Sequence record: NC_010583.1 | Length of the DNA stretch: 64,000 nt | Reading direction: 5' to 3' (one strand) | Source of the DNA: Escherichia phage Eps7 | Shown: one piece after another, positions 31,087-44,286 of the stretch | How positions within the stretch are numbered: the stretch's first letter is position 1 | Layout: every line of letters starts with the position of its first letter | Notes under the pieces: generated by a model | Told to the model about the DNA's origin: nothing | What the model saw: the letters and a program-made list of their open reading frames with translations, nothing else | The model's database searches: none | Program-made: the position numbers and the translations under genes

Positions 31087-31092
31087 ATAAAT

Positions 31093-31168: not shown

Positions 31169-31174
31169 AGTATT

Positions 31175-31250
31175 TGGCTGGGATGCCACGGATCGAACGT
31201 GGAACCTTCGGAGTCAGAGGCCGACGATCTGCCAATTGATCTACATCCCA
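31175..31250 (-). tRNA. tRNA-Gln (CTG)
   Basis: manual fold: U1-A72, discriminator G, anticodon loop CTCTGAC, D-stem GATC, CCA. Confidence 0.6.
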
Positions 31251-31258
31251 ATAATTTT

Positions 31259-31459
31259 TTATTCTTCAGGAACCGTGGCTATTGGATCTGGTTCTTCTAG
31301 ACGTTTACCATTATGATCGACACGAATAATGCCACAACCTTCACAGATTACAACAGCACCATAGCCTTCTTTAACTTCGGCTTCTGTAATCAGACCAGAT
31401 AAATCACCAGTATCTTTGCCCCACATATCAATAGAGCATTCTTTGCAGAAATCAGCCAT
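31259..31459 (-). CDS. zinc-ribbon-like small protein
   Basis: 66-aa ORF with CxxC...CxxC. Confidence 0.5.
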   Translation of the reverse strand: MADFCKECSIDMWGKDTGDLSGLITEAEVKEGYGAVVICEGCGIIRVDHNGKRLEEPDPIATVPEE

Positions 31460-31483
31460 ATTTTATTTCCTATTTAAGTTAAT

Positions 31484-31558
31484 TGGTGCATCCTCAGGGA
31501 ATCGAACCCCGATCGTAAAGTTCGTAGCTTTACATTCTTTCCGTTGAAATAAGGACGC
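31484..31558 (-). tRNA. tRNA-Arg (ACG)
   Basis: manual fold: anticodon stem TAAAG/CTTTA, loop CTACGAA, T-loop TTCGATT, CCA. Confidence 0.6.
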
Positions 31559-31564
31559 AATATT

Positions 31565-31641
31565 TGGGGTGGCTAGTGGAATTCGAATCCACATAGGCCT
31601 GATTCACAATCAGGATCATTAACCAATTATGATATAGCCAC
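31565..31641 (-). tRNA. tRNA-His (GTG)
   Basis: manual fold: anticodon stem CCTGA/TCAGG, loop TTGTGAA, T-loop TTCGAAT, CCA. Confidence 0.7.
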
Positions 31642-31960
31642 AATTGAAATCTCTAGTTATCCCTTTCGGAGGGGCTAAAGGGCGATACCCATTCTAAAGA
31701 CTTCAATTGTGGCGGCTCTCCGAAACTCATCACACTAACAACTAGTTGATTACTTCTGGATTCTCGCCCAGAAAATTCTCTAGAAAGGTGCACCGTTACT
31801 CTTTGAGCCATTAATGTATCAAGAAGCAGAAGGACTTGAACCTTCACGAGATAGACCATTTATCTCAGCCTCGTTTTCGGGTATCTTATGAGGAGTGGAT
31901 GTTCCCCTTACGCCCTTTAGGAAGCCCCGTCTACCGATTCCGGCATACTTCAAGAATTAT
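31642..31960 (-). other. unresolved tRNA-like / structured RNA region
   Basis: ORF-free; contains Leu-tRNA-like D-arm GGAATCGGTAGAC and a T-arm GAAGGTTCAAGTCCTTC without clean acceptor pairing or CCA. Confidence 0.3.
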
Positions 31961-32164
31961 TTAAAACTTGTAACCTTCGGGAACCTTATCCTTAACACCA
32001 ATATACTCAGCTTGGATGTAATAATCAGGTACATGATCTTTTGGCAGATTCTTGTTAGTATCATGAACCTCAGCTCTAGCTTCTTCTTCAGAATCAAAAC
32101 CACGATACCAGATTTCACCACCCCAGCCACGTTCACTTTCGGTATACTTAACAATGTGTTTCAT
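31961..32164 (-). CDS. hypothetical protein
   Basis: track ORF 31961..32215 trimmed to internal Met so it does not overlap tRNA. Confidence 0.4.
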   Translation of the reverse strand: MKHIVKYTESERGWGGEIWYRGFDSEEEARAEVHDTNKNLPKDHVPDYYIQAEYIGVKDKVPEGYKF

Positions 32165-32182
32165 AAGGTTTTCCTTATTAGT

Positions 32183-32272
32183 TGGAGGAAGGTAATGGAG
32201 TCGAACCATCACCATATCGCTACAGCGGGCAGGTTTTCAAGACCTGTTACATACCACTATGTCCTACCTTCC
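32183..32272 (-). tRNA. tRNA-Ser (TGA), long variable arm
   Basis: manual fold: acceptor GGAAGGT/ACCTTCC, anticodon stem CAGGT/ACCTG, loop CTTGAAA, CCA; 90 nt. Confidence 0.65.
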
Positions 32273-32279
32273 AGTTGTT

Positions 32280-32370
32280 TGGCGGAAGAAGAGAGATTCG
32301 AACTCTCAAGCCGTTTTACCAGTCAGCCACTTTCCAAGCGGTTTTCGTCACCTAATCGATTTGCTCTTCC
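32280..32370 (-). tRNA. tRNA, long-variable-arm class (anticodon unresolved, possibly Ser-GGA)
   Basis: perfect T-arm GAGAGTTCGAATCTCTC, acceptor GGAAGAG/TTCTTCC, CCA; 91 nt. Confidence 0.5.
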
Positions 32371-32544
32371 GTAGATCTCAGGATTAAATCATAAACTTCA
32401 TTAGCGGATACTGGAAGTATGAGATTATACATCTTTTGGTCATACCTCTGACCATACTCTATAAACACATACTCTTTAGTTAATGTATTAACAGCTAACC
32501 AGATATCAGTTATAGGAGTTTTCATCATGAGTTAATCCAATGTT

Positions 32545-32625
32545 TGGTAGGGATGGAGGGACTCGAACCCACACCCGAAGACTAGAATCTAAATCTAGCG
32601 CGTCTGCCAATTTCGCCACATCCCC
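32545..32625 (-). tRNA. tRNA-Leu (TAG)
   Basis: manual fold: anticodon stem CTAGA/TCTAG, loop TTTAGAT, extended variable region, CCA. Confidence 0.6.
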
Positions 32626-32632
32626 ATTTTAT

Positions 32633-32851
32633 TTAGTTAGAAATAAATAATAATCCCGCAACAATGGAACCTACGCCACTGAACACCATTATCAGCATAG
32701 CTTCTAAGCTGATAAAGCGGACAGTATATGGAGCGCCCCAAGAATAATCAGTAAAGAAAGTTTTCTTTTCTTTAGCTAAATCTTTAACAGTTCTAAAATA
32801 GATAGCTAGTGCTAAAGCTGCAAGAACTATAGAGGCTGCTAAGAATACCAT
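32633..32851 (-). CDS. small membrane protein
   Basis: 72-aa ORF with two hydrophobic segments. Confidence 0.45.
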   Translation of the reverse strand: MVFLAASIVLAALALAIYFRTVKDLAKEKKTFFTDYSWGAPYTVRFISLEAMLIMVFSGVGSIVAGLLFISN

Positions 32852-32870
32852 ATTATTTCCTTAATTTGTT

Positions 32871-32946
32871 TGGTGGAGTCACTCAGAATTGAACTGAGTT
32901 CCACTGCTTGCAAGGCAGTAAGTTTAACCAAATAACCTATGACCCC
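32871..32946 (-). tRNA. tRNA-Ala (TGC)
   Basis: manual fold: G3-U70 pair, anticodon stem ACTGC/GCAGT, loop CTTGCAA, CCA. Confidence 0.6.
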
Positions 32947-32952
32947 GAATTT

Positions 32953-33031
32953 TGGTGGAGAATAACGGAATCGAACCGTTCTGATGTCCTCGGTGCAAGC
33001 GAGGTGTCCACTCCATGCAGACCCATTCCCC
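32953..33031 (-). tRNA. tRNA with anticodon TGC (second Ala-like copy)
   Basis: manual fold: G3-U70, anticodon stem CCTCG/CGAGG, loop CTTGCAC, T-arm AACGGTTCGATTCCGTT, CCA. Confidence 0.5.
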
Positions 33032-33040
33032 AAAATTTAT

Positions 33041-33304
33041 TTATTCTCTATACATATCGAGAACAGTTGCTACAATCTGAGCTTCTAGCCTAGCAATATC
33101 TTTATTCACTATATCAGATTCTACTACTAAGTGATTATATATTGCTTCAGTTTTAGCAAGATCTACATCAGATAGTTTATTAAGACTATTATAATACTTA
33201 GCATTATTGCAACGTTTCTTCATATCGGAAACTCGTTTATGGAGTGTTCTTTGTTGATAACGTTGTGACATTAGTTTCTTAGCCATATCTTTCAGATCAA
33301 ACAT
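33041..33304 (-). CDS. hypothetical protein
   Basis: 87-aa ORF with AGGAAT RBS. Confidence 0.5.
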   Translation of the reverse strand: MFDLKDMAKKLMSQRYQQRTLHKRVSDMKKRCNNAKYYNSLNKLSDVDLAKTEAIYNHLVVESDIVNKDIARLEAQIVATVLDMYRE

Positions 33305-33548
33305 GGATATTCCTTCTAGTTTACTAAGGCTATTAGCTCGGTGTGCGTATTACCCTCAGACATTAGCCAGTAGAGGATAATCGCTCTTCACAAACCCGAT
33401 ACACTATTCAGTTGCCGCTGAATCTAGCGGACTAATCTAGAACTTCTCCCGAGTCGTAGGGATCGTGCTTTTTTGGCAGCCAGTCCTAGGTCGAGCTAAT
33501 ACCTTAGTGAACTTTGATGAGGATTTCTCCTCATCAATTTATATAAAT
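33305..33548 (-). ncRNA. candidate structured leader / small RNA
   Basis: 245-nt ORF-poor transcribed segment between promoter and next start codon; long-range complement TAAGGTATTAGCTCG vs CGAGCTAATAGCCTTA; local hairpins. Confidence 0.3.
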
Positions 33549-33577
33549 ATTATAACAAGAAATTAAGCATCAAGCAA
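33549..33577 (-). promoter_or_regulatory. sigma70-type early promoter
   Basis: ATTATA 33549-33554, AAGCAA 33572-33577, 17-bp spacer. Confidence 0.6.
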
Positions 33578-33929
33578 GTACATTTTTAGCGATTTCTTGT
33601 AGTTCCTTAACGTCGCTAACGAAAAGGTAATCAGAGCTTCCAGAGTGCATACTCTGCATAACCACACCACCATCCGGTGCATCTTCTTTCAGTGTGATAC
33701 CTAACCAGAACTCGGCAAAACTAGGTGTTACCTCACCTTGACTTGCCTTGAACACATCGCCTTCTGTGATCTCTTGACCAGTGGAGAGTCCCATGTATGG
33801 TACGTTCAGATCAATATCTTTGTAGAACTCAGCTAGATCTTGCTCGAAATCCCAACCTTTAGAGATAGCGAACTCCATTGTTACATGACCGAAATAGCCT
33901 TGAACCTTGCTTGATAATTGCATTTGCAA
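33570..33929 (-). CDS. hypothetical protein
   Basis: 119-aa ORF. Confidence 0.5.
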   Translation of the reverse strand: MQMQLSSKVQGYFGHVTMEFAISKGWDFEQDLAEFYKDIDLNVPYMGLSTGQEITEGDVFKASQGEVTPSFAEFWLGITLKEDAPDGGVVMQSMHSGSSDYLFVSDVKELQEIAKNVLA

Positions 33930-33948
33930 TTCCTTATTTTGAGTTAAT

Positions 33949-34022
33949 TGGTACTCGGTGATAGAATCGAACTATCGCAACCGCCGTGTAAAGACGGGGT
34001 TCTCCCATTAAACTAACCGAGC
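33949..34022 (-). tRNA. tRNA-Val (TAC)
   Basis: manual fold: T-arm GATAGTTCGATTCTATC, anticodon stem CCGTC/GGCGG, loop TTTACAC, CCA. Confidence 0.6.
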
Positions 34023-34026
34023 AATT

Positions 34027-34104
34027 TGGTGGATTGCCTGGGATTCGAACCCAGAACTGACGGATTAAAGGTCCGCTACTCTTATCCAGTTGAGCTAGCA
34101 ATCC
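34027..34104 (-). tRNA. tRNA-Lys (TTT)
   Basis: manual fold: anticodon stem GCGGA/TCCGT, loop CCTTTAA, T-arm CTGGGTTCGAATCCCAG, CCA. Confidence 0.6.
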
Positions 34105-34490
34105 AATTTTTCTACTAATAATTTAAAAGCATCTAGTACAGGTACTTCAAACCATTCTCCAGATACTCTATAATCTTTAAGAAGATTATGTAATTCTTTC
34201 TCTGTACGTCTTTTATCCGACGAAAATCTGAAATGGTATAGCTTGTAGTCTCTATTAGGTGAATAAGTTTGATAACTTGTTAACCTCTCATTCACATCTA
34301 TAGTCATACCTATTTTATACATGCCTGGCCATGCTGGATTACCAATTACATATACAAAACCTTCCGTTATAGGTATTTTATGCTCCCTTTTATACTTTAA
34401 GAGATTTAAGGCTGCCATTCGATAACAGAATCTAAACTCTGAAGTTTTTAACTTACCTTCTTTACCTGAAATTTCGTTATATTTGCTCAT
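34095..34490 (-). CDS. T5orf172-type (GIY-YIG-like) domain protein
   Basis: 131-aa ORF with YVIGNPAWPGMYKIGMT...RL...Y pattern; 3' end overlaps tRNA by ~10 nt. Confidence 0.5.
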   Translation of the reverse strand: MSKYNEISGKEGKLKTSEFRFCYRMAALNLLKYKREHKIPITEGFVYVIGNPAWPGMYKIGMTIDVNERLTSYQTYSPNRDYKLYHFRFSSDKRRTEKELHNLLKDYRVSGEWFEVPVLDAFKLLVEKLDC

Positions 34491-34744
34491 ATAAGCTCTT
34501 ATGAGCTTATCATCTATAATGAAGTTATCAGGAAGGTTTAAGGCAGCTAAAAACTTTATTAATTAGCATAGACTTCCTTAATAGAATAAACTTTTAAGTT
34601 AAGGTGATTAATACCAAATTCCGCCATCACTTCGTTTTCATCTTTACCGTAATGGGCTAGTGGATACTTCTTACGATCTTTGCTAGAACGTAGATCACTT
34701 ACTTTTAAACGAAATAATTTCATTTCGAAATCCTTCTATTAAAT

Positions 34745-34822
34745 TGGAAGCGGGTGCAGGAATCGAACCTACCTCTTTCTAGCTTATGAGACTAGCGATC
34801 TCTACCAGAGATCTAACCCGCA
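34745..34822 (-). tRNA. tRNA-Met (CAT), possibly initiator type
   Basis: manual fold: unpaired 1-72, anticodon loop CTCATAA, T-loop TTCGATT, CCA. Confidence 0.55.
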
Positions 34823-34828
34823 ATTGTT

Positions 34829-34907
34829 TGGTCTCCGTGGGAGGATTTGAACCCCCCGACCCTATCGCCCCAAACGAAACGCTCTGGCCAAACTGAGCTA
34901 CACGGAG
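34829..34907 (-). tRNA. tRNA-Pro (TGG)
   Basis: manual fold: acceptor CTCCGTG/CACGGAG, anticodon loop TTTGGGG, T-loop TTCAAAT, CCA. Confidence 0.55.
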
Positions 34908-34938
34908 AATATTCTTTGTTAACTCACTTTATAAATAT

Positions 34939-34967
34939 ATTATACAGAGAATTAAGCTAAATAGCAA
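34939..34967 (-). promoter_or_regulatory. sigma70-type early promoter upstream of tRNA pair
   Basis: ATTATA 34939-34944, TAGCAA 34962-34967, 17-bp spacer. Confidence 0.6.
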
Positions 34968-35212
34968 CTACATTTTTAATAAATTTACTTATTAGGTAAG
35001 TCACCGAGCTATCAACTCATGCTAGCGAAAGTTTGCGAGACCTTCTTTAAGTACTAGAACACACCCGCCGATGTGTCGGACTTACTTAATAAGTAAACTT
35101 TCGTTTACTTACACCTACCTGGTCGGGAGGATTTTCAGCGACTAGAACCGGCCGGAAACTCATCGCCTTGTTTATCTAGGAGTCCGTTCTCTAGGAAGCA
35201 GAAACCTAAATT

Positions 35213-35287
35213 TGGTGCGGTCGGAGGGAATCGAACCCTCAACTTCTGGTTGGCAACCAAAAAATTATACCTTTTAACTACGAACGC
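35213..35287 (-). tRNA. tRNA-Gly (GCC)
   Basis: manual fold: T-arm GAGGGTTCGATTCCCTC, anticodon stem TTTGG/CCAGA, loop TTGCCAA, CCA. Confidence 0.6.
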
Positions 35288-35302
35288 ATAATAAGTCAAT
35301 CT

Positions 35303-35440
35303 AGGCAGGACTTGAACCTGCTATCACTTGTGCGGATTTACGAGAACCATTCTTTCACTCGAATCGAACGAGCTTCTACCCTCGGCAAGCTGGTGTCCCC
35401 TCTCCACCACGCTAGAATGATAATTAATGCCTGCTCCTTT
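35303..35440 (-). other. unresolved tRNA-like region (two T-arm-like motifs, no encoded CCA)
   Basis: GCAGGTTCAAGTCCTGC and GCTCGTTCGATTCGAGT motifs; acceptor stems could not be paired by hand. Confidence 0.3.
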
Positions 35441-35500
35441 GAATCAAGAAGTCCACCCCGGACTTTGGGTCTTTGCAGTACATCACGCTGCTCTGATGTT

Positions 35501-35576
35501 TGGTACACCCACTAGGACTTGAACCTAGAACCCTCCGCTTAAGAGGCGGTAGCTCTAACCATTGAGCTATGGATGT
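35501..35576 (-). tRNA. tRNA-Lys (CTT)
   Basis: manual fold: T-arm CTAGGTTCAAGTCCTAG, anticodon loop CTCTTAA, CCA. Confidence 0.55.
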
Positions 35577-35652
35577 ATTATTATGTTTTGCAGTGCTCTA
35601 AATATAGACACTTCCCACGCGGTGGTTATCTATACCAGCGTCCTGCAAAAAT

Positions 35653-35729
35653 TGGCGCGACCGATGGGATTCGAACCCACATTTTCTCCCGTGACAGGGG
35701 AGTACCATTACCAAGCCAGCCCCGATCGC
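35653..35729 (-). tRNA. tRNA-Asp (GTC)
   Basis: manual fold: anticodon stem CTCCC/GGGAG, loop CTGTCAC, T-loop TTCGAAT, discriminator G, CCA. Confidence 0.65.
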
Positions 35730-36025
35730 ATAATTTATTTACTCAGTTTTGAGTTTTTCGATAGCTTCCTCAACCTCTTTTAGAGCTTCACGACGGGCAT
35801 TCTGTTGCTGCATATCTTGAATTAATGTCAGTTTTTGTTTTTAATTTCTTGATCCCAAACCTTAATATTATTAATCAGACTATCACGATCAGCTTCTAGT
35901 CGAGCAATTGCACGAGTTGTCATATCTATTTCCTCAGTTATTAATGAAAATGGTATCTGTGACTGAATTCAATATCAGTAATGATAGCTGGTTGGCTACC
36001 GGTTTACTTAACTCTACACAGAATA

Positions 36026-36108
36026 TGGCGGGCCGTGTAGGATTCGAACCTACGTTGTCTTTCGACATGGATTAACAGTCCACCGCCAAACCGCTTGGCT
36101 AACGACCC
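36026..36108 (-). tRNA. tRNA-Asn (GTT) with enlarged variable region
   Basis: manual fold: anticodon arm GTGGACTGTTAATCCAT, T-arm GTAGGTTCGAATCCTAC, CCA; 83 nt. Confidence 0.55.
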
Positions 36109-36115
36109 TAAAATT

Positions 36116-36191
36116 TGGACGACCGCATGAGATTCGAACTCACATAAGGAGGTTTTGCAGGCCTCCGCCTAAGCCATTCAGCCAACGGTCG
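36116..36191 (-). tRNA. tRNA-Cys (GCA)
   Basis: manual fold: anticodon loop CTGCAAA, discriminator U, T-loop TTCGAAT, CCA. Confidence 0.55.
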
Positions 36192-36369
36192 AGTTATCTT
36201 GCTTTTCGAGATTAGTAAACTCTAGATCTTTAGAATGTCCTATAGATCTAGCATAATAGCCATCTCCAGCATCATAGCCTGACTTACCACACTCACACAT
36301 CTTAAACTCTCTATAACGAGTGAAAATATGTTCAGAACCACAACACTTAAATTTAACTAACATTTTCAT
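36178..36369 (-). CDS. zinc-ribbon-like small protein
   Basis: 63-aa ORF with CC...CxC; 3' end overlaps tRNA by ~14 nt so stop may be misplaced. Confidence 0.4.
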   Translation of the reverse strand: MKMLVKFKCCGSEHIFTRYREFKMCECGKSGYDAGDGYYARSIGHSKDLEFTNLEKQDNSTVG

Positions 36370-36590
36370 TTAACACGCTCCGGTAAATCTTCGAGTTTAT
36401 ATTGAGTAGCCACATTAGCAGCATCTAGTAACAAACCCATATGTTTAAGAATCCTAGTGATAGCTTCGCCTTCTGCTTCTTCTACAAAAGTGCGTAGTTG
36501 AATGAAGTCAATACCACCATCCATACCAGAGAAAATGTTAAGTAAGCGAAGCATTACCAGCTTACGTTCTTTTAATTCTTGTTCTGCCAT
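36366..36590 (-). CDS. hypothetical protein
   Basis: track ORF 36366..36608 trimmed to Met 30 nt downstream of promoter -10. Confidence 0.5.
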   Translation of the reverse strand: MAEQELKERKLVMLRLLNIFSGMDGGIDFIQLRTFVEEAEGEAITRILKHMGLLLDAANVATQYKLEDLPERVK

Positions 36591-36619
36591 GTTGCTTCTC
36601 CAGTTCAATTTATGTAATA

Positions 36620-36648
36620 ATTATACAGAACTTTAAGGATTTAAGCAA
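36620..36648 (-). promoter_or_regulatory. sigma70-type early promoter
   Basis: ATTATA 36620-36625, AAGCAA 36643-36648, 17-bp spacer. Confidence 0.6.
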
Positions 36649-36928
36649 CTACATTTTTCAGAAATTTGATGCCTTTCTTTTTCTTCTTATACTTCCACGT
36701 TAATGGATTCTGTCGATTATGAACGCTTGAGATCTTTGTCTCGTCAAATTTCTTCAATACCATGTAATCACACGCCAACTGCTCTAGTGGAATGGTTTCT
36801 CCATCAAAAGCATAAACATAAGGCTGTTGACTAGCACGATAATGATAGACTTTGTTAACTCTACGTTTCAGCGACTTATCCGCGCAGTAAATAAAGAAGT
36901 TTTCAGGATGCATCAGCATCTCCTTCAA
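36641..36928 (-). CDS. hypothetical protein
   Basis: 95-aa ORF directly downstream of tRNA. Confidence 0.45.
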   Translation of the reverse strand: MKEMLMHPENFFIYCADKSLKRRVNKVYHYRASQQPYVYAFDGETIPLEQLACDYMVLKKFDETKISSVHNRQNPLTWKYKKKKKGIKFLKNVVA

Positions 36929-36930
36929 AT

Positions 36931-37005
36931 TGGTGCAACCTGTACGTAACGATCGTACCTCTTCTCCTTTTCAGGGAGACGCTAATCCATCTCAGCTAAA
37001 GTCGC
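36931..37005 (-). tRNA. tRNA-Phe (GAA)
   Basis: manual fold: anticodon stem TCTCC/GGAGA, loop CTGAAAA, CCA; atypical T-loop. Confidence 0.5.
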
Positions 37006-37011
37006 AAATAT

Positions 37012-37088
37012 TGGCAAACCTACTAGGACTCGAACCTAGACCGTACGGTTTTGGAGACCGACATGCTGTCCAGTAACACTCTAGGAAT
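37012..37088 (-). tRNA. tRNA-like, anticodon probably CCA (Trp); acceptor stem imperfect
   Basis: T-arm CTAGGTTCGAGTCCTAG, anticodon arm CGGTCTCCAAAACCG, CCA end; 5' acceptor pairs poorly. Confidence 0.4.
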
Positions 37089-37096
37089 GCAGAAAT

Positions 37097-37173
37097 TGGC
37101 GTCCTGTGCGGGGATCGAACCCGCAAATCCTACCTTGAAAGGGTAGTGACTTTACCAGTTTGTCTAACAGGAC
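37097..37173 (-). tRNA. tRNA-Glu (TTC)
   Basis: manual fold: acceptor GTCCTGT/ACAGGAC, anticodon stem CTACC/GGTAG, loop CTTTCAA, CCA. Confidence 0.7.
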
Positions 37174-37180
37174 TTAAATT

Positions 37181-37271
37181 TGGTGTTGGATGATGGAGTC
37201 GAACCACCCGAGACCCTTCCGAGTCGGCAGATTTACAGTCTGCTTCGCTACCTCTACGATACTAATCCAAC
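37181..37271 (-). tRNA. tRNA-Tyr (GTA), long variable arm
   Basis: manual fold: anticodon stem GCAGA/TCTGC, loop CTGTAAA, 91 nt, CCA. Confidence 0.65.
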
Positions 37272-37396
37272 ATATTTGAATGAAAAATAAGTCGGTTAAA
37301 CTCAAGGTGGAATATTTCAGGAAATCCTGACTTTACCCCTAAAAGCAACTCGCTTAGTTACTTCTCATTCAGATATGTTTTCCAAATTAGATAACT

Positions 37397-37426
37397 ATTA
37401 TATCAAGTTTTGAAGGACTGAGCAAG
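37397..37426 (-). promoter_or_regulatory. sigma70-type promoter overlapping a hairpin
   Basis: ATTATA 37397-37402, AGCAAG 37421-37426; inverted repeat CTGAGCAAG...CTTGCTCAG 37418-37450. Confidence 0.45.
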
Positions 37427-37461
37427 TCAAATTTTAAAGAACTTGCTCAGTGCTATATCAG

Positions 37462-37737
37462 TTACTCGAAGCTAGGAGTGACACTCAGTTTGAATGGAAG
37501 CTCGAACACTTCTTCATAATCATCATTGAGCGTAATTACACGACCTTCTAGCTTAGTCATGGTGATTTCGATATCAGCCTCTGCATCAGGAGCCATACCA
37601 GCTTCCACACATTTAGCTTTGACTTCCGGCAGAAGTTCTACATCGTAGAAATAAAGCCATTCAATCTCACCTTCCCAGCCACCCCAGGATTTACAAACAG
37701 CACTTTCAACACCAGTTGCAGTAACACGTTTTGACAT
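37462..37737 (-). CDS. hypothetical acidic protein
   Basis: 91-aa ORF 31 nt downstream of promoter. Confidence 0.5.
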   Translation of the reverse strand: MSKRVTATGVESAVCKSWGGWEGEIEWLYFYDVELLPEVKAKCVEAGMAPDAEADIEITMTKLEGRVITLNDDYEEVFELPFKLSVTPSFE

Positions 37738-37767
37738 TCGTTAACTCCTTCATCAATTTATATAACT

Positions 37768-37797
37768 ATTATAGCAGAAATCTTAAGTAAAAAGCAA
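37768..37797 (-). promoter_or_regulatory. sigma70-type early promoter
   Basis: ATTATA 37768-37773, AAGCAA 37792-37797, 18-bp spacer. Confidence 0.6.
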
Positions 37798-37827
37798 GTA
37801 CATTTTTAAAATTTCTGCTTGGAGGAG

Positions 37828-38034
37828 TTAAACTCCTGATTCTTCAGCCAGATCAAGCCCAACCAACGTGATTGCCATAATAGCCGCGCCATGTTCTTTC
37901 TCTCCTAGCTCTTTGGCTTGAGTGAGAATATTTAGGAACTGCTTTTGAAAATCTGCAACTTCTTCTGTCATGCCTGCTTCAGCAATAATTCCTTTCAGCA
38001 TAAAGCGTTGTGCCGTAATTTCAGGATTAGCCAT
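37828..38034 (-). CDS. hypothetical protein
   Basis: 68-aa ORF. Confidence 0.45.
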   Translation of the reverse strand: MANPEITAQRFMLKGIIAEAGMTEEVADFQKQFLNILTQAKELGEKEHGAAIMAITLVGLDLAEESGV

Positions 38035-38185
38035 TTATTATCTCCAGTTATTTAGAATGTAAGCCAAACTTAGGATCATAGCGATCGTAAGTCGTACCAT
38101 TAGTTGAAGCCTTGATGCTATGAAAACGACAGTACATAAATTTACGTAGTGCTTTCTTAATAGCTTTCATTTTATTTCCTTAATT

Positions 38186-38262
38186 TGGTAGGGGTGGTGG
38201 GATTCGAACCCACAAAACCTGAATTTTAAGTCCAGTACCTATGCCAATTCGATTACACCCCC
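38186..38262 (-). tRNA. tRNA with anticodon TAA (Leu-type) but short variable arm
   Basis: manual fold: T-arm GTGGGTTCGAATCCCAC, anticodon stem CTGGA/TTCAG, loop CTTAAAA, CCA; D-arm irregular. Confidence 0.45.
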
Positions 38263-38270
38263 ATGTAATC

Positions 38271-38608
38271 TTAGCGAATCTCTAAACCCTGGAAATATCG
38301 AGGGAATGGAGAGCCAACTTCAAAATTGATGCCCCAATTAAGTTCAACGAGTTCAGATTTATTAAGATCTAGGCCATTACCTTCAAAGATATAGCCGTAA
38401 ACCGCAGGGAACATAGCTGCTAGATCTTCCATATCGGAATGAGCATTGTGTTCTTCACGGAACTGCTCAACTCTTCAATAGAACTTTTCTAGGAGACTCA
38501 GGTACGATGAACGTTACCACATCAGTAGAATCATCGGTACGATACACCGTAGCTTGGAACAAGCCAACACCTAAAAGGTTTATTGCCGGAGTAGTAAAAA
38601 TATCCATC
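38271..38608 (-). CDS. hypothetical protein, frame interrupted near 38470
   Basis: two adjacent protein-like frames (MDIFTTPAINLL... and ...EQFREEHNAHSDMEDL...) each below track threshold. Confidence 0.35.
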
Positions 38609-38794
38609 TTAGCCTCGCTCAATGTCTAGACAAATTGCATATTCAGGGTTGATACCAGTACCTTTACATGTAGGACATTCCCATTCTCTACAGAAAATAT
38701 CCCCAGGTTCTGCATCATCCTGCCTACCACTACCATGACAGTCCTTACACCGACATTCTTCTAATGCTTTCTTCATTTCATAGAATCTAGACAT
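38609..38794 (-). CDS. zinc-finger-like small protein
   Basis: 61-aa ORF with CxxC...CxxC. Confidence 0.5.
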   Translation of the reverse strand: MSRFYEMKKALEECRCKDCHGSGRQDDAEPGDIFCREWECPTCKGTGINPEYAICLDIERG

Positions 38795-38811
38795 ATAGTC
38801 TCCTAGTTAAT

Positions 38812-38889
38812 TGGTGGCTCCCGGAGGATTCGAACCTACCTACCTTTCGCTTATGAGGCGACGGCTCATACCAAATGAGCTTGAGAACC
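38812..38889 (-). tRNA. tRNA with anticodon CAT (third CAT tRNA)
   Basis: manual fold: D-stem GCTC/GAGC, anticodon loop CTCATAA, T-loop TTCGAAT, CCA. Confidence 0.55.
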
Positions 38890-38894
38890 AAATT

Positions 38895-38988
38895 TGGAGG
38901 AAGATGCCAGATTCGAACTGGCACACCGTGTCTCCACAGCTACTGGCTGTTTAGCAAACAGCTCCCTTACCTTTAGGGTTAATCTTCC
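38895..38988 (-). tRNA. tRNA-Ser (GCT), long variable arm
   Basis: manual fold: acceptor GGAAGAT/ATCTTCC, anticodon loop TTGCTAA, T-arm GCCAGTTCGAATCTGGC, 94 nt, CCA. Confidence 0.6.
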
Positions 38989-39002
38989 GAATTTATGAAT
39001 AT

Positions 39003-39031
39003 ATTATACAGAAAATTTCGGCATTAAGCAA
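39003..39031 (-). promoter_or_regulatory. sigma70-type early promoter upstream of tRNA pair
   Basis: ATTATA 39003-39008, AAGCAA 39026-39031, 17-bp spacer. Confidence 0.6.
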
Positions 39032-39039
39032 GTGAAATT

Positions 39040-39336
39040 TTACTGAACATTGCACTGATATACTTGTTTGATACGTGTCACTGACTTCTTAGTTGGGTTG
39101 ATAGAAGAACCCTGCCACCAACGTGATTCTGAGCTGAGAACAGCCCCAGGAACAGCTTGTTCTTTTGGCAGAACAATATCAAAACACTGTTCACCCATAT
39201 TATCTTTAATGTGCGACCAAATGTCTAGAGTAAATCGTTCTAGCTTATTACAAACTTGAACTTGACAAAGTTCCTGTTGTGGAGCAGCAAATACAGAAGT
39301 AGATACTAGAGTCAATGCAAGTACAATGCGTTTCAT
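39040..39336 (-). CDS. secreted/periplasmic protein (signal peptide)
   Basis: track ORF trimmed to MKRIVLALTLVSTSVFA start; MREESNM prefix is a leader artefact. Confidence 0.5.
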   Translation of the reverse strand: MKRIVLALTLVSTSVFAAPQQELCQVQVCNKLERFTLDIWSHIKDNMGEQCFDIVLPKEQAVPGAVLSSESRWWQGSSINPTKKSVTRIKQVYQCNVQ

Positions 39337-39366
39337 ATTTGATTCCTCTCTCAAATTTATAAATAT

Positions 39367-39394
39367 ATTATACAGAAATTTTCTATATAAGCAA
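39367..39394 (-). promoter_or_regulatory. sigma70-type early promoter
   Basis: ATTATA 39367-39372, AAGCAA 39389-39394, 16-bp spacer. Confidence 0.55.
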
Positions 39395-39411
39395 GGTAAA
39401 AATTTATGTAT

Positions 39412-39434
39412 ATAGCCCTCTAAGCGAGGGCTAT
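39412..39434 (-). terminator. hairpin ATAGCCCTC-loop-GAGGGCTAT downstream of pnuC-like gene
   Basis: perfect 9-bp stem; T-rich tract is weak. Confidence 0.4.
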
Positions 39435-39441
39435 AACTACT

Positions 39442-40134
39442 TTATTTGTTAACGCGTACAAAGTATCCTTTATAGGCTCCCATAATAGAGTTACCTAAGA
39501 ATACTAGCCACATTGCTAGGATTGCATAAGATGCACCTGTAGATTGAGCAGTTACAAGCCAAATGTACACAGTACCAATGTTAATAGCAATCCAAATCAG
39601 CCATTGTTCAGCATATTGTTTGACCATAAGCCACATAGCAATCACACTACCTACCGCAGTAAATGCATCCAACATTGGGAATGGATCAGCCGTAGTAGCA
39701 AGGAAACTACCATAACCTAACGTGGCTACTGCTAAAATCCCTAGAGTCAGCAAAGCTTGAGCTTTTGTCAGAACTTTAGTTGGAACATCCGGCAGATTAC
39801 TTGGCTTATTTTTATGCCATAAGTACATTCCATAAAACTGCATAGGAACGTAGTATAGCAGGTTTAGTGCAGCGTTACCATAAAGATCTGCGTTTAAAGC
39901 TGTAATACCATATGTAAGAACACCCACTAAGCCCCAAATATAGTTGGAAACACGTCCTTTTGCAACCAGAATAACACAAACCACATTGGTTATTGCAGTA
40001 GCCCAATCTAGAGCTGTACCATTATAGTTTGCTAAACTAATAAAGGCGACTGCTATAAACAGCCACAGATATTCCAGAGGTTTCCAGTTTTTAAAGTCAT
40101 TTACGAGATAGTTAGTCATATTAAAACTCTCCAA
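39442..40134 (-). CDS. pnuC: PnuC-like nicotinamide riboside transporter
   Basis: 230-aa multi-TM ORF overlapping the end of the NadR-like gene; size and topology typical of PnuC. Confidence 0.55.
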   Translation of the reverse strand: MESFNMTNYLVNDFKNWKPLEYLWLFIAVAFISLANYNGTALDWATAITNVVCVILVAKGRVSNYIWGLVGVLTYGITALNADLYGNAALNLLYYVPMQFYGMYLWHKNKPSNLPDVPTKVLTKAQALLTLGILAVATLGYGSFLATTADPFPMLDAFTAVGSVIAMWLMVKQYAEQWLIWIAINIGTVYIWLVTAQSTGASYAILAMWLVFLGNSIMGAYKGYFVRVNK

Positions 40135-41176
40135 AGATAAAGTGATGAATCAGCCAGTCTACTGCGTTTACTGCTTCGTCCATACGAACTTTGTAGTCCG
40201 GAGAGTCGATGTAAACAGTACGCCCTTCAGGGAACTGATTTGGAAATTCTTTCTTCATCTGCTCGAACAGTTCAGAAGTAATTGAACGATCGGAGTTAAT
40301 ACGTAAACCATCATCTACCCACTTGACAGTAGGCGCTAGAACAATTACTAAATCGTAATGTTCTTCTTTTGCAATTGCTGTAACCACAGGGTTCTTACTA
40401 TGTTCATAAAGTCTGTGGTAGAACTCAGTAATAAAAGCATTTGTATCCACAAACATGATCTTATTTGCAGTACGTTTTGCTTCAAACTCTAGCTCTTTGT
40501 GTCTGAACGCAATTTTACTATAGTCTTCGCTGGTAAGCAGATTTTCGTTACCAACTAGATCAACTTCACAATACGTTCGGCCATATTCTTTTACCCACGA
40601 AGTGTTGTATAGCTTCGCAAGGTATTTTGTTAAAGTAGTCTTTCCTGAGCTTTCAGTCCCAATGATTACAACCTTACGCACGTAATCTTTACGAACTACG
40701 CTAGGAAGAAACTCCCAATACTTCATAAGATCATTACGAATCATTGTAGCTGAGATTGGAACACGAGTCCGATCAGAATCTACAATATAATGACCAAACT
40801 TCGGCAGATATTTCTTATATTCTGCATCATAGTCTAGTTCGCTAGAGAAAATGGTGATCTCAGGCAAATGTCCGTAATTTTCATTAAGGATTCTAGCATA
40901 TTCCGGCCAACCATTCGGATATTCAGGAATATCATCTTCAATAATGTACTCTACCGAAATGTGCTCAATATCCGCGTAAGTTTGTTCTAACCAACGAAGT
41001 CGATTCTTTAACTGTAATACTTCCTGATCACGTGTGTTCTGCTTATCCAGCCAACGATTATCATGACTAACTACAACAATAACTCGTTCACACATAGTTG
41101 CTGCTGTGTTTATTAGGTTAATATGACCACGCGTTAATGGCGCGAACTTACCAATTACTAGACCAGTCTTAATCAT
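40121..41176 (-). CDS. nadR: NadR-like bifunctional NMN adenylyltransferase / ribosylnicotinamide kinase
   Basis: N-terminal nucleotidyltransferase motif GKFAPLTRGHINLI and C-terminal Walker A GTESSGKTT; start trimmed to MIKTGLV. Confidence 0.65.
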   Translation of the reverse strand: MIKTGLVIGKFAPLTRGHINLINTAATMCERVIVVVSHDNRWLDKQNTRDQEVLQLKNRLRWLEQTYADIEHISVEYIIEDDIPEYPNGWPEYARILNENYGHLPEITIFSSELDYDAEYKKYLPKFGHYIVDSDRTRVPISATMIRNDLMKYWEFLPSVVRKDYVRKVVIIGTESSGKTTLTKYLAKLYNTSWVKEYGRTYCEVDLVGNENLLTSEDYSKIAFRHKELEFEAKRTANKIMFVDTNAFITEFYHRLYEHSKNPVVTAIAKEEHYDLVIVLAPTVKWVDDGLRINSDRSITSELFEQMKKEFPNQFPEGRTVYIDSPDYKVRMDEAVNAVDWLIHHFIFGEF

Positions 41177-41205
41177 ATTTGATTCCTCTCTCAAATTTAT
41201 AAATA

Positions 41206-41234
41206 TATTATACAGAGAATTTAGCGTTCAAGCA
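41206..41234 (-). promoter_or_regulatory. sigma70-type early promoter
   Basis: ATTATA 41206-41211, AAGCAA 41229-41234, 17-bp spacer. Confidence 0.6.
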
Positions 41235-41390
41235 ATCGAATTTTTAAACTTTTTAGTGGAAAAATCTCAAGGCATTTAGTGGTAGCACGTTGTTGCTACA
41301 ATAATAGTATATGTATTACTAAAGTAAATAAAGAATTAAATACTAAAGACCTTAGTTGAATAACTTATGGGCTTTTCTTTTGCCTTAAAT

Positions 41391-41427
41391 ACAGAAAAGC
41401 CCGCGCTCTCGGAGGAAACGCGGGCTT
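41391..41427 (-). terminator. rho-independent terminator
   Basis: AGCCCGCG-loop-CGCGGGCT stem followed on minus strand by TTTTCT. Confidence 0.65.
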
Positions 41428-41450
41428 GGTTCGAAGATTACGTGTAACTA

Positions 41451-42395
41451 TTACTTGTTACGCATATCCATGATCATTTGACCATCGTAGCCAGTACCAA
41501 CAACAGTCTGCGGTACACCACCTTGTATTTTTCAGCACGAAGCATTTCAAACTTCCAGCTGCTTCCAACGAATCATTTCAGGAGTAATGGTACGTTGCAG
41601 CGCGGCGTTAGCTTCAGCTTCTTTCTTAGCTGCGTACAGTTTAGCATCTGCGTCACGTTCGTTAGCTACTGCCATGTTTTCACGAGCAGAACGATCAGCT
41701 TCAGCTTGCTTAACTTTCTGCTGTGCTTCTTGTTCAACACGAGCCAATTCAGCTTTAGCGGCGTTAACTTGTTCTTCACGAACTTTTGTGTTTTGTACCT
41801 GTTCCATGATTACAGGTGGCAGAGTAATATCCTGAAGGAATACTTGCTTAACCGTGTAACCATAAGGACGCGCGTACTCTTCTACTTCTTGCTGAATAGC
41901 AGTTTGCAGTTGAGCCTGAATCTTAGCGTCGAACAGATCTTGTGCTTTTGGTACAGACTTACCAAACTCACGAATCGTAGATAGCATCTTCTCTTCAACG
42001 TACTTGTTCAGAGCTTGATCCTGAGTACCTGCGTTAACACGGTTCATAGGAGCTTTAGCACCATCAAACTGCAACATAACGGTAATGTCAACAGTGGACT
42101 TAAACTTATCCTGGCTAGGAACCTGAAGTTTATCCAGTTTCATGGAAATATCTTTCGTACTAAAAGTATCAAAAGAAGCAAATGGGTTAACAATATGGAA
42201 GCCTGGCAATACAGGATTAGGGCTAACTTTACCCAGGAAGGTTTGGGTCTTAACAGTACCATCCTGAACAACTGTGTAGGAATTGAGAGCCAGAATAAGA
42301 GCGCCAAGACCAACTACAGCACCAACACCCCAACGTTTGATAGTGCGAATTACTTTTTGCTCAGAAGTCAGTTCTTTAGTGTTTTTAGTAAACAT
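41451..42395 (-). CDS. SPFH/band-7 (stomatin/prohibitin-like) membrane protein, C-terminus frame-shifted
   Basis: 282-aa ORF with N-terminal TM and long Gln/Ala coiled-coil region; protein-like frame continues to stop near 41451. Confidence 0.5.
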
Positions 42396-42406
42396 ATATT
42401 TCCTTA

Positions 42407-42607
42407 TTATTTAGAAGAGTTAGCTACTACAGTTACTTTAGTTGCAGAAATAAACAGGCTAGCATCCACAGCAAATTCAGGAGCTTTGATATCTCCATTA
42501 TGAAATATGACTATACCGGAGACTACTTCAAATGCTAGTGCTGTAACATCGGTGGTATTTACTTGTGAATGTTCACCTACTACTTTTACTATATATCGTG
42601 TTTTCAC
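42407..42607 (-). CDS. hypothetical protein
   Basis: 66-aa ORF downstream of tRNA. Confidence 0.45.
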   Translation of the reverse strand: MKTRYIVKVVGEHSQVNTTDVTALAFEVVSGIVIFHNGDIKAPEFAVDASLFISATKVTVVANSSK

Positions 42608-42633
42608 TTTATTTTCCTAGCAGTTAATAAAAT

Positions 42634-42708
42634 TGGCCGAGGTGACAGGATTCGAACCTGCATAAAGGAATTTAGAAGACTCCTGCCTATCCCTTAGACT
42701 ACACCCCG
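42634..42708 (-). tRNA. tRNA-Arg (TCT)
   Basis: manual fold: acceptor CGGGGTG/CACCTCG, anticodon stem GGAGT/ATTCC, loop CTTCTAA, T-arm GCAGGTTCGAATCCTGT, CCA. Confidence 0.6.
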
Positions 42709-43805
42709 TTTAGGTATTTTTAAGAACTCTTATAAAAGCTCTTAAAGATACCCGACGGTAGGTAGGGTCAGCCCCCTCAGATTAAGCTCTGCAGCCCTTC
42801 CGTCAGACAATATCTTCCAGTTTAAGTCAGGGTGACTTTGTGGTTATGTTCTCCGTATGTGAAGAACTCGGTTAGGCTTAGGTCATGACTCCCAGCCTAC
42901 TGCTGCCACTCAACAGGAATTATCGCGAATTACCTGTACTATTGGGCACCATTAGTGACATCTCTCATGTCAGCGTTTCCCACTCTCATATTCACGCGGT
43001 CTGTTAGAATCGCACCTCCGATTTTCGATGCGAAGCTGGATGCCTAGTCTCAGGTTAAACGGGGCACACACTAGGCAGTGATCCCGAGTTCCGAGTTTGG
43101 TTGAGGCCGTCAGGTTTCCTCGTGGTTTAGCTGTTTCGATTCTAACCTAATACTGATCAGGTGGCGTACCTCCTGAACCGTCATAGTATGTACTCCAGCA
43201 GCGAATGCTTATCCGGTATAAGCCCGAGTTATCCGATTCTTTCCAGAAGGAGCAGTAAAGCTCAATGTCAGCCTGTGAGCATCTGGCAGTGTTATCACAT
43301 AAGTCAGTTCGACACCCCACATTTTAGTGCCTGGTAGATCCCGAATGAAGCCCTCAGTCGTTAGACCTCCATCATTCATCAAAGATTTACGCTACCCACT
43401 ATTCGATGGACAATCGCCGCATTGTGGTATACATACGTTTTCACTTGCATCCTAGACGGGTCAGCGTTGAAAGTTATATGGGTTTCTCAAGCCCAACCTT
43501 CAGTCTTCTACCCCTGGGACACGCACCGTATTTCACACTGTGCCTAGCTCCTGTTGAGACCCATCGTTTTGTATAAATTAGAGAAGAGTTTAGAGGAGAG
43601 GTTTCAGACGCCTCATTTTACAAGAAGTCTCGAACCTATATTCGTTACTCTAGTCACTTGGCCGGATATACCGGACTGGACTCGGAACTCTAACAGGTGA
43701 TCATTCTTAACCCACCGACTCTATTCAGTGTCAGAAGCTATCACTAGGTGAATCGCTAAAGCTCACTCAGCGTAATCGGCTCGCTGTTCTCTAATTTATG
43801 AATCT
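42709..43805 (-). other. ~1.1-kb ORF-free, G+C-elevated segment transcribed from an early promoter (candidate large non-coding RNA or foreign insert)
   Basis: no ORF of 60 codons or more in six frames; sampled G+C ~45-52 percent versus ~30-40 percent in flanks; promoter at 43806-43834 points into it. Confidence 0.4.
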
Positions 43806-43834
43806 ATTATACAGAATTTTGGAACGTTTAGCAA
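43806..43834 (-). promoter_or_regulatory. sigma70-type early promoter reading into the ORF-free segment
   Basis: ATTATA 43806-43811, TAGCAA 43829-43834, 17-bp spacer. Confidence 0.6.
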
Positions 43835-43842
43835 ATCAATTT

Positions 43843-44286
43843 TTAATTAAATTCGCCAGCAACCTGAGCAGCAATGCCACCATCGTAACGACCAGGAAAC
43901 TCTTCCTTAATCGCTTTCATCAGCATACCCTTTGTAATCCCAGGATTCAACTTAACTAATTCTGCAAAGTATTTGCGAATCTCAGAATCAGATAACTGAG
44001 GCGGCAGATACTGTTGTAGCCATTTGTTCAGTATATATTCATACTGAGCAGACTGCAAGCTATAATTATCAAGGTCTTGACCGTGAAGTTTAGCTTTTGT
44101 CTGATTAATGCTTTTCAGTTGAGCTTTTAGATAAGATACAAACTGTTCAGAAGTAATGAAGTCTTTATCAACACGCTGAAGATCTCCGATTATAGTCTGG
44201 TAGCTTTTAGCTACTTCTTTATCAGAACCATCAACCTTAGATTCCTGCAAAGCCCTACGCAAAACATCTAGAATATTCTCTTCCAT
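43843..44286 (-). CDS. GatB/YqeY-domain-like protein
   Basis: 147-aa ORF; recalled resemblance of C-terminal region to YqeY family; TAATG overlap with upstream small ORF. Confidence 0.45.
   Translation of the reverse strand: MEENILDVLRRALQESKVDGSDKEVAKSYQTIIGDLQRVDKDFITSEQFVSYLKAQLKSINQTKAKLHGQDLDNYSLQSAQYEYILNKWLQQYLPPQLSDSEIRKYFAELVKLNPGITKGMLMKAIKEEFPGRYDGGIAAQVAGEFN

What the first reader, a model, noticed from the sequence alone, without database searches (positions are those of the whole stretch)
39442..41176. NadR-like / PnuC-like pair: phage-encoded nicotinamide riboside uptake and NAD synthesis module
The NadR-like ORF has a nucleotidyltransferase motif (TRGHINLI) and a second-domain Walker A (GTESSGKTT) but no N-terminal HTH region, consistent with NMN adenylyltransferase plus ribosylnicotinamide kinase. 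A 230-aa multi-TM PnuC-like transporter overlaps its end. Together they would let the phage import nicotinamide riboside and make NAD+, which could support phage enzymes or counter NAD-depleting host defences.
Basis: partly seen in the sequence, partly recalled or inferred. Interest (0 to 1): 0.6.

Follow-up and report, generated by a model that had tools for sequence, protein, structure and literature searches.

The report
Phage NAD-rebuilding module NARP3, already known

Summary
On the minus strand, a 351-aa NadR-like gene (41176..40121) is followed one base later by a 225-aa PnuC-like gene (40119..39442).

All profile libraries support both assignments. NadR lacks the N-terminal HTH.

The window is an Epseptimavirus, a T5-like phage of the Demerecviridae. 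The two proteins are 347/351 and 224/225 identical to Bas30_86 and Bas30_87 of Escherichia phage TrudiRoth.

Those proteins were published in August 2026 as "NARP3" (Sci Adv, PMC13464706). That paper showed nicotinamide riboside (NR) binding and NR-dependent rescue for the transporter, and NR->NMN->NAD+ conversion in vitro for the enzyme. It also reported crystal structures (a near-identical PDB chain is 9x6f/9x6h) and rescue of T7 and lambda from Sir2-HerA and DSR1.

All 20 residues named in that paper, most of them tested by mutation, are conserved here. The pair had been flagged as a hypothesis in 2024.

Corrections: the 230-aa TTG start and the "overlap" are probably a longest-ORF artefact. 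The unit has its own T5-early-type promoter and ends in a hairpin.

Still open: the role in the native phage has never been tested. One new but weak lead: the small secreted protein just downstream sits next to nadR in three unrelated phage lineages.

The parts
41207..41235 (-). Sigma-70-type promoter of the unit: -35 TTGCTT (41235-41230), 17-nt spacer, -10 TATAAT (41212-41207). An AT-rich tract lies upstream.
   Evidence: Read directly from the sequence. The automatic scan found an offset variant, TTGAAC/TATATT, at 41231-41202. The resemblance to classical T5 early promoters is from my own memory and was not tested. Function is inferred.
41174..41216 (-). 43-nt block running from the -10 box through the RBS (GAGAGAGGAA, 41192-41183) to the nadR ATG. 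An exact second copy lies at 39334-39376.
   Evidence: 2 exact matches in the window and 0 in 100 shuffles. Both copies are also exact in TrudiRoth.
40121..41176 (-). NadR-like bifunctional enzyme of 351 aa: an NMN adenylyltransferase domain (about residues 1-150) and a ribosylnicotinamide kinase domain (about 165-315). No HTH domain.
   Evidence: profile libraries; 347/351 identical to Bas30_86. PDB 9x6f/9x6h at 794 bits over the full length, and H. influenzae NadR 1lw7 at 1e-54; all 17 Bas30_86 residues named in the paper are conserved.
39442..40119 (-). PnuC-type nicotinamide riboside transporter, 225 aa from ATG 40119. RBS GGAG at 40132-40129. The start lies 1 nt after the nadR stop.
   Evidence: profile libraries; 224/225 identical to Bas30_87. 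N. mucosa PnuC 4qtn at 8.7e-33. N45, Q94 and N180 conserved, about 7 hydrophobic segments.
39411..39435 (-). 10-bp GC-containing hairpin 7 nt after the pnuC stop. It is the likely end of the transcription unit. Its T tail is imperfect.
   Evidence: (reported on the + strand; the stem is palindromic) and the sequence. Terminator function is inferred.
41397..41427 (-). Strong terminator-like hairpin (12 pairs plus a T run) after the upstream SPFH gene. It marks the upstream boundary of the unit.
39040..39336 (-). Neighbouring gene with its own copy of the promoter/RBS block. It encodes a 98-aa secreted protein (phrog_6894, = bas30_0088) with 4 invariant Cys. It is a possible accessory partner, not an established one.
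   Evidence: PHROG 1.3e-52. (adjacent to nadR in three phage lineages, absent from that position in others). (conservation). (model at pLDDT 76, no fold match).

Best explanation
This is a copy of the phage NAD+ reconstitution pathway NARP3. It is a bicistronic early transcription unit of an Epseptimavirus (T5-like phage).

Proposed mechanism:
- The PnuC-type inner-membrane protein takes up nicotinamide riboside (NR).
- The HTH-less NadR-like enzyme phosphorylates NR to NMN in its C-terminal kinase domain.
- The same enzyme adenylylates NMN to NAD+ in its N-terminal domain. Each step uses one ATP.
- This refills the NAD+ pool when host NADase defences (Sir2-HerA, DSR1 and similar) empty it, so phage replication can continue.

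Shown here: gene structure, family membership, near-identity to the characterised proteins, and conservation of every residue named in the paper.

Shown elsewhere for proteins about 99% identical: NR binding, the two-step catalysis, the crystal structure, and NR-dependent rescue of T7 and lambda.

Inferred: that the same happens during infection by this phage, early expression from the promoter, and translational coupling of the two genes.
For: - Family assignments pass curated cut-offs.
- The window is an Epseptimavirus, with 97-98% DNA identity to SP_Thor, PSa2 and TrudiRoth.
- Proteins are 347/351 and 224/225 identical to Bas30_86/87.
- The PDB entry 9x6f/9x6h matches at 794 bits end to end.
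- The 17 enzyme residues and 3 transporter residues named in PMC13464706, most of them tested by mutation, are all unchanged (residues taken).
- The paper reports for the transporter: NR binding with Kd 0.66 uM.
- The paper reports for the enzyme: NR->NMN->NAD+ by HPLC.
- The paper reports in vivo: restoration of NAD+/NADH and 10^3-10^4-fold rescue of T7 and lambda from Sir2-HerA and from DSR1, only when both genes are present. Rescue is NR-dependent with an EC50 of about 4-6 uM.
- The two genes co-occur across phages with near-equal counts: 790 and 778 of 50,697 records, with matching organism breakdown.
- No riboswitch or other Rfam element lies in the unit, which fits unregulated phage-promoter expression.
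Against: - The published tests were heterologous: plasmid expression with T7, lambda and Klebsiella phages. The authors state that the native phage could not be examined.
- No deletion mutant of any T5-like phage has been tested, so the contribution during a real infection is unknown.
- The pathway needs external NR, whose availability in natural habitats is uncertain.
- TIGR01526 scores 270 bits, below its equivalog cut-off of 341. The enzyme is therefore a diverged NadR relative, not an orthologue.
Confidence: 0.9

Rival explanations
1. The module's main native role is housekeeping rather than counter-defence. It would raise NAD+ supply for the phage's own NAD+-consuming enzymes and for the heavy nucleotide metabolism of a large lytic phage. 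Defence evasion would then be a side benefit.
For: - The close relative PSa2 encodes a two-part NAD-dependent DNA ligase just beyond the window's end, and a Sir2-like protein.
- The window itself carries the Sir2-like gene at 59829-60643.
- It also carries nrdAB, nrdD, thyA and frd homologues by synteny with PSa2.
- NadR/PnuC pairs are common in large and jumbo phages (PMC9503650).
Against: - T5 has the ligase and Sir2-like genes but lacks nadR/pnuC at the syntenic site. The module is therefore dispensable for that lifestyle.
- The only functional data available show a defence-related phenotype.
- The Sir2-like gene is frameshifted in this window.
- The two roles are not mutually exclusive.
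Confidence: 0.25
2. The functional unit here has three genes. The small secreted protein downstream (39040-39336) would work with NadR/PnuC in the periplasm, for instance by capturing or protecting NR.
For: - Homologues (52-66% identity) lie within 10-640 nt upstream of nadR in jumbo phages of about 355-371 kb and in phages of about 145 kb. In Epseptimavirus the gene lies just downstream of pnuC.
- It carries the same 43-nt promoter/RBS block as nadR.
- It has a signal peptide and 4 invariant Cys, which suggests a periplasmic protein.
Against: - At least 7 other phage lineages carry the gene with no nadR/pnuC within 5-10 kb.
- The organism lists suggest that Vibrio and Gram-positive phages with NadR/PnuC lack it.
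- The two genes alone are sufficient in E. coli.
- The model matches no known fold that would give a function.
- The linkage could simply reflect transfer as a block.
Confidence: 0.12
3. The transporter carries a different substrate, such as another vitamin nucleoside as in other Pnu-family members. Alternatively the enzyme is only an adenylyltransferase, so the pair would not form an NR-to-NAD+ route.
For: The Pnu family includes transporters for other vitamins (my own knowledge, not tested here). N45 of the phage protein aligns with a Gly in N. mucosa PnuC.
Against: - A protein differing by one residue binds NR, and rescue is NR-dependent.
- The kinase-domain Walker A and the site-1 residues are intact.
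- TIGR01528 (the PnuC equivalog) is passed by a wide margin.
Confidence: 0.02

Closest known systems
NARP3 of Escherichia phage TrudiRoth (Bas30_86/Bas30_87; Sci Adv 2026, PMC13464706; PDB 9x6f/9x6h)
   Same: Same genus. Same gene order and 1-nt spacing. Same flanking genes (SPFH upstream, bas30_0088 homologue and tRNA-Ser/Met downstream). Proteins 98.9% and 99.6% identical, with all named residues conserved.
   Different: Four substitutions in the enzyme (K196E, K234E, I347N, F348V relative to Bas30_86) and one in the transporter (A25V). None is at a residue named in the paper.
Bacterial NadR plus PnuC (E. coli / Salmonella / Haemophilus influenzae NR salvage; PDB 1lw7, 4qtn)
   Same: Same two catalytic domains and motifs, and the same transporter fold family. 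H. influenzae NadR matches at 1e-54 and N. mucosa PnuC at 9e-33. The Q and N pocket residues and the EQW..W segment align.
   Different: The phage enzyme has no N-terminal HTH repressor domain. The genes are fused into one phage-promoter-driven unit, whereas in E. coli they sit at separate loci according to the paper. No NAD-responsive regulation is evident.
NARP1 and NARP2 (Osterman et al., 'Phages reconstitute NAD+ to counter bacterial immunity', bioRxiv 10.1101/2024.02.11.579819)
   Same: Same strategy: rebuild NAD+ instead of inhibiting the defence protein. That paper already named the NadR/PnuC operon of BASEL phages as a likely further pathway.
   Different: Different chemistry. NARP1 rebuilds NAD+ from ADP-ribose and nicotinamide. 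NARP2 uses Nampt plus NMNAT starting from nicotinamide and PRPP. NARP3 depends on an imported precursor.

Membership tests
NARP3 (phage NadR-like / PnuC-like module) | NadR-like enzyme with NMNAT and RNK domains but no HTH | tested here: met
   NF005988 aligned to model positions 65-406 only. The ORF cannot extend upstream by more than 6 codons. 98.9% identical to Bas30_86.
NARP3 (phage NadR-like / PnuC-like module) | PnuC-type transporter encoded immediately downstream on the same strand | tested here: met
   The ATG lies 1 nt after the nadR stop. 99.6% identical to Bas30_87.
NARP3 (phage NadR-like / PnuC-like module) | Residues named in the paper, most tested by mutation: enzyme K10, F11, S37, E80, P84, G89, F110, S112, D115, V139, I141, K163, D164, R167, K168, E230, D275; transporter N45, Q94, N180 | tested here: met
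   All 20 are unchanged.
NARP3 (phage NadR-like / PnuC-like module) | NR import and NR->NMN->NAD+ catalysis | not testable with these tools
   Inferred from about 99% identity to proteins for which it was measured.
NARP3 (phage NadR-like / PnuC-like module) | Rescue of phage from NAD+-depleting defence (Sir2-HerA, DSR1) | not testable with these tools
   Reported for Bas30_86/87 expressed from plasmids. Never tested in a native T5-like phage.
NadR family (NCBIfam NF005988 / TIGR01526) | Nucleotidyltransferase (H/T)xGH and ISxTxxR motifs | tested here: met
   TRGH at 15-18 and ISATMIR at 141-147. CTP_transf_like 3.5e-07.
NadR family (NCBIfam NF005988 / TIGR01526) | C-terminal P-loop kinase domain with Walker A | tested here: met
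   GTESSGKT at 173-180. AAA_28 2e-31.
NadR family (NCBIfam NF005988 / TIGR01526) | N-terminal HTH DNA-binding domain of the trifunctional enterobacterial protein | tested here: not met
   Model positions 1-64 are unmatched. This is therefore a bifunctional NadR-like enzyme, not a trifunctional NadR regulator.
NadR family (NCBIfam NF005988 / TIGR01526) | Score above the curated cut-off | tested here: inconclusive
   NF005988 scores 254 against a cut-off of 201 (pass). TIGR01526 scores 270.5 against 341 (fail).
PnuC family (Pfam PF04973 / TIGR01528) | Profile score above the curated cut-off | tested here: met
   PF04973 scores 148 bits against 27.3. TIGR01528 scores 121 against 42.45.
PnuC family (Pfam PF04973 / TIGR01528) | Multi-pass membrane protein with a conserved substrate pocket | tested here: met
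   About 7 hydrophobic segments. Q94, N180 and the EQWLIW segment align with the same residues of 4qtn.

The most novel reading that the evidence does not exclude
In phages of Gram-negative hosts, the NadR/PnuC module may have an unrecognised accessory partner. The candidate is the 98-aa secreted, disulfide-bonded protein of family phrog_6894 (window 39040-39336, = bas30_0088).

It sits next to nadR in three unrelated phage lineages and has no known fold. It could act in the periplasm on NR supply.

Separately, the native-phage role of NARP3 is still untested. The exact 43-nt repeats that flank the cassette might delete it precisely by recombination, which would make it an easily lost accessory unit.
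Probability: 0.12. Interest if true: 0.5.

Novelty: already known. Interest (0 to 1): 0.22.

Why it matters
NAD+ depletion is a common end-point of bacterial anti-phage systems, and phage pathways that rebuild NAD+ defeat several such systems at once. This locus is a natural copy of the third such pathway.

Its value now is as one more instance. It confirms how tightly the module is conserved in Epseptimavirus phages of Salmonella and E. coli.

It also points to what is still missing: a test in the native phage, and the role of the conserved neighbouring secreted protein.

Tried and rejected
- Rfam scan of 38900-43900 at E<=0.1 for an NAD riboswitch or other regulatory RNA: only the two flanking tRNAs were found.
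- TTG start at 40134 for pnuC: rejected in favour of ATG 40119 (RBS position and annotation in relatives).
- Function of the downstream secreted protein:
  - Pfam and NCBIfam gave nothing.
  - A PDB profile search gave no hit at E<=5.
  - The afdb50 library was unavailable.
- Obligate linkage of that protein with nadR: rejected, because many lineages carry it without nadR nearby.
- A 65-aa 'nicotinamide mononucleotide transporter' is annotated in phage PSa2 near the Sir2-like gene. The corresponding window ORF (59551-59829) has no Pfam match and is not hydrophobic, so this is probably a misannotation.
- Literature search for further NARP3 work found nothing relevant.

Full report
**What is there.** The stated interval holds two minus-strand ORFs.
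- The first runs from ATG 41176 to a TAA at 40123-40121 and encodes 351 aa. The longest ORF adds only six codons, from a TTG at 41194, and everything upstream is promoter sequence. No N-terminal domain can be hidden there.
- The second ORF was listed as 230 aa from TTG 40134. That TTG has no ribosome-binding site. ATG 40119 lies nine bases after a GGAG, is the start annotated in relatives, and gives 225 aa.
- The genes therefore do not overlap. They are arranged TAA-T-ATG, which is compatible with translational coupling (inferred).

**Family assignment of the enzyme.**
- Pfam: AAA_28 (2e-31) and the cytidylyltransferase-like domain (3.5e-07).
- NCBIfam: the NadR model NF005988 scores 254 bits against a cut-off of 201. 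The match covers only model positions 65-406, so the HTH is missing.
- The narrower TIGR01526 equivalog scores 270 bits, below its cut-off of 341.
- PHROG 3462 matches at 2.8e-153.

**Family assignment of the transporter.**
- It passes PF04973 (3.1e-43), TIGR01528 (121 bits against 42) and PHROG 1880 (1.2e-74).
- It has about seven hydrophobic segments.
- It aligns with the solved N. mucosa PnuC 4qtn at 8.7e-33. The Gln and Asn of the pocket and the EQW..W segment are conserved.

**What the window is.**
- A 3.6-kb piece around the locus matches 445 phage records. The best matches are 97-98% identical Epseptimavirus genomes (T5-like, Demerecviridae): SP_Thor, JN-S202001, S116, PSa2, SuperGirl and TrudiRoth. 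Many already annotate nadR and pnuC.
- The window also carries 29 tRNA genes in the arrangement typical of T5-like phages.

[quoted passage not shown] That paper studies Bas30_86/Bas30_87 of phage TrudiRoth and reports the following.
- The PnuC-like protein is a trimer that binds NR (Kd 0.66 uM). Residues N45, Q94 and N180 are required.
- The HTH-less NadR-like enzyme binds NR, NMN and NAD+ and converts NR to NMN to NAD+ in vitro.
- Crystal structures with and without NAD+ define a kinase site and an adenylyltransferase site. Mutants in either site abolish function.
- Both genes together, but neither alone, restore NAD+/NADH. They rescue T7 and lambda by 10^3-10^4-fold from Sir2-HerA, and also from DSR1. 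Rescue depends on NR, with an EC50 of about 4-6 uM.

**How the window compares with those proteins.**
- The window proteins are 347/351 and 224/225 identical to Bas30_86 and Bas30_87.
- The deposited structure 9x6f/9x6h matches end to end at 794 bits.
- All 17 enzyme residues and all 3 transporter residues named in the paper are unchanged.

**Earlier mentions.** The operon had been named as a probable further NAD+ reconstitution pathway of BASEL phages in the 2024 NARP1/NARP2 preprint. Phage NadR was surveyed in 2022.

**Anatomy added here.**
- The unit is bounded upstream by a strong terminator-like hairpin after the SPFH gene (41427-41397).
- Next comes a promoter with -35 TTGCTT (41235-41230), a 17-nt spacer and -10 TATAAT (41212-41207). 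A long purine-rich RBS follows.
- A 10-bp hairpin lies 7 nt after the pnuC stop (39435-39411).
- The 43 nt from the -10 box to the ATG are repeated exactly in front of the next gene (39376-39334). No shuffle of the window gave a match. The repeat is also exact in TrudiRoth.
- Recombination between the two copies would remove nadR-pnuC precisely (inference).
- No Rfam family other than tRNA matches the region, so no NAD-responsive RNA control is evident.
- In T5 itself, the site between the SPFH gene and tRNA-Ser holds different genes (T5.076-T5.079) and no nadR/pnuC. The position therefore behaves as an accessory-gene slot.

**Distribution.**
- tblastn finds NadR-like genes in 790 and PnuC-like genes in 778 of 50,697 phage records.
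- The host breakdowns are nearly the same for both. Listed as NadR/PnuC records: Vibrio 355/383, Salmonella 174/174, Klebsiella 47/47, Bacillus 24/24, Lactobacillus 18/18, Prevotella 15/15 and Erwinia 14/14.
- This supports a functional pair well beyond Enterobacteriaceae phages.

**What remains uncertain.**
- All functional data are heterologous. The authors say the native phage could not be tested.
- A housekeeping role is not excluded. It would feed the phage's NAD-dependent ligase, which is present in the close relative PSa2 just beyond the window's end, and its Sir2-like protein.
- T5 has both of those genes without the module, and the Sir2-like gene is broken in this window. I rate housekeeping as the main role at about 0.25.

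**A side lead.** The gene after pnuC (39336-39040) encodes a 98-aa protein of family phrog_6894.
- It has a signal peptide, four invariant cysteines and a conserved SESRWYQGSSINPTKKSVTRV segment.
- The family has only 75 clusters among 5.8 billion proteins, none named and none with a Pfam domain.
- Homologues sit 10-640 nt upstream of nadR in jumbo phages of 355-371 kb and in phages of about 145 kb. In Epseptimavirus the gene is just downstream of pnuC.
- Ten of 18 IMG/VR loci show this linkage.
- At least seven other lineages have the gene with no nadR/pnuC within 5-10 kb.
- The organism lists suggest that Vibrio and Gram-positive phages with NadR/PnuC lack it.
- The two published genes are sufficient on their own.
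- The NARP3 paper does not mention this gene.
- I treat a functional link as possible but unproven, at about 0.12.

**Sequence quality note.**
- Compared with three relatives, the window has an extra T at about 41550 and a missing C at about 41524 in the 3' end of the SPFH gene. This creates a premature TGA and gives 282 aa instead of 314.
- The window also has one T fewer in a T run, which splits the Sir2-like gene. PSa2 shares that second change.
- These homopolymer changes may be sequencing errors. nadR and pnuC are intact.

**Verdict.** The feature is a known system, NARP3, in a phage of the same genus as the one in which it was characterised.

Noticed in passing
window 39040-39336 (-): 98-aa secreted protein (phrog_6894, = bas30_0088) with 4 invariant Cys, no Pfam domain and no fold match. 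It lies next to nadR in Epseptimavirus, in jumbo phages of about 360 kb and in phages of about 145 kb. It occurs without nadR nearby in at least 7 other lineages.
   Followed up: yes
window 41174-41216 and 39334-39376 (-): Exact 43-nt direct repeat (-10 box, RBS, ATG) flanking the nadR-pnuC cassette. Recombination between the copies would delete the cassette precisely. Both copies are also exact in TrudiRoth.
   Followed up: partly
window 59829-60643 (+): The Sir2-like gene is split into a 71-aa piece and a 216-aa piece. A T run has one T fewer (TTTT against TTTTT in phage AKFV33). The same split is annotated in PSa2. Most T5-like phages annotate a single Sir2-family gene at this position.
   Followed up: partly
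window 41520-41552 (-), 3' end of the SPFH/Band 7 gene (41547-42395): An extra T and, 26 nt later, a missing C relative to PSa2, TrudiRoth and T5. Together they create a premature TGA, giving 282 aa instead of 314. Possibly homopolymer sequencing errors.
   Followed up: partly
L003 (phage T5, NC_005859, record 37.2-39.8 kb) against window 39000-41500: At the syntenic site between the SPFH 'lipoprotein' gene and tRNA-Ser, T5 carries T5.076 (Toprim/primase-like) and T5.077-079 instead of nadR-pnuC. The site behaves as an accessory-gene swap position.
   Followed up: partly
window 29711-42708 (-): 29 tRNA genes, all on the minus strand, interspersed with small ORFs. This is the tRNA region typical of T5-like phages.
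   Followed up: no
window about 42709-43842: About 1.1 kb without long ORFs and with raised G+C (0.43), next to tRNA-Arg. T5 annotates a 719-nt stable 'RNAX' of unknown function at the equivalent position. Homology was not checked.
   Followed up: no
window 60923-61462 (+): 179-aa protein with a HAD_SAK_2 domain (HAD domain of 'Swiss Army Knife' RNA repair proteins, 2.6e-19), just downstream of the Sir2-like gene.
   Followed up: no
window 59551-59829 (+): The homologous small ORF in PSa2 is annotated 'nicotinamide mononucleotide transporter'. The window ORF has no Pfam match and is not hydrophobic, so this is probably a misannotation in the public record.
   Followed up: partly
L034 (metagenome contig ERZ23498458 scaffold_52), 5918-8282: In an unrelated phage-like contig, a phrog_6894 homologue lies about 770 nt downstream of a Band_7/SPFH gene. 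In the window, SPFH lies upstream of nadR-pnuC and phrog_6894. A possible older SPFH link was not examined.
   Followed up: no
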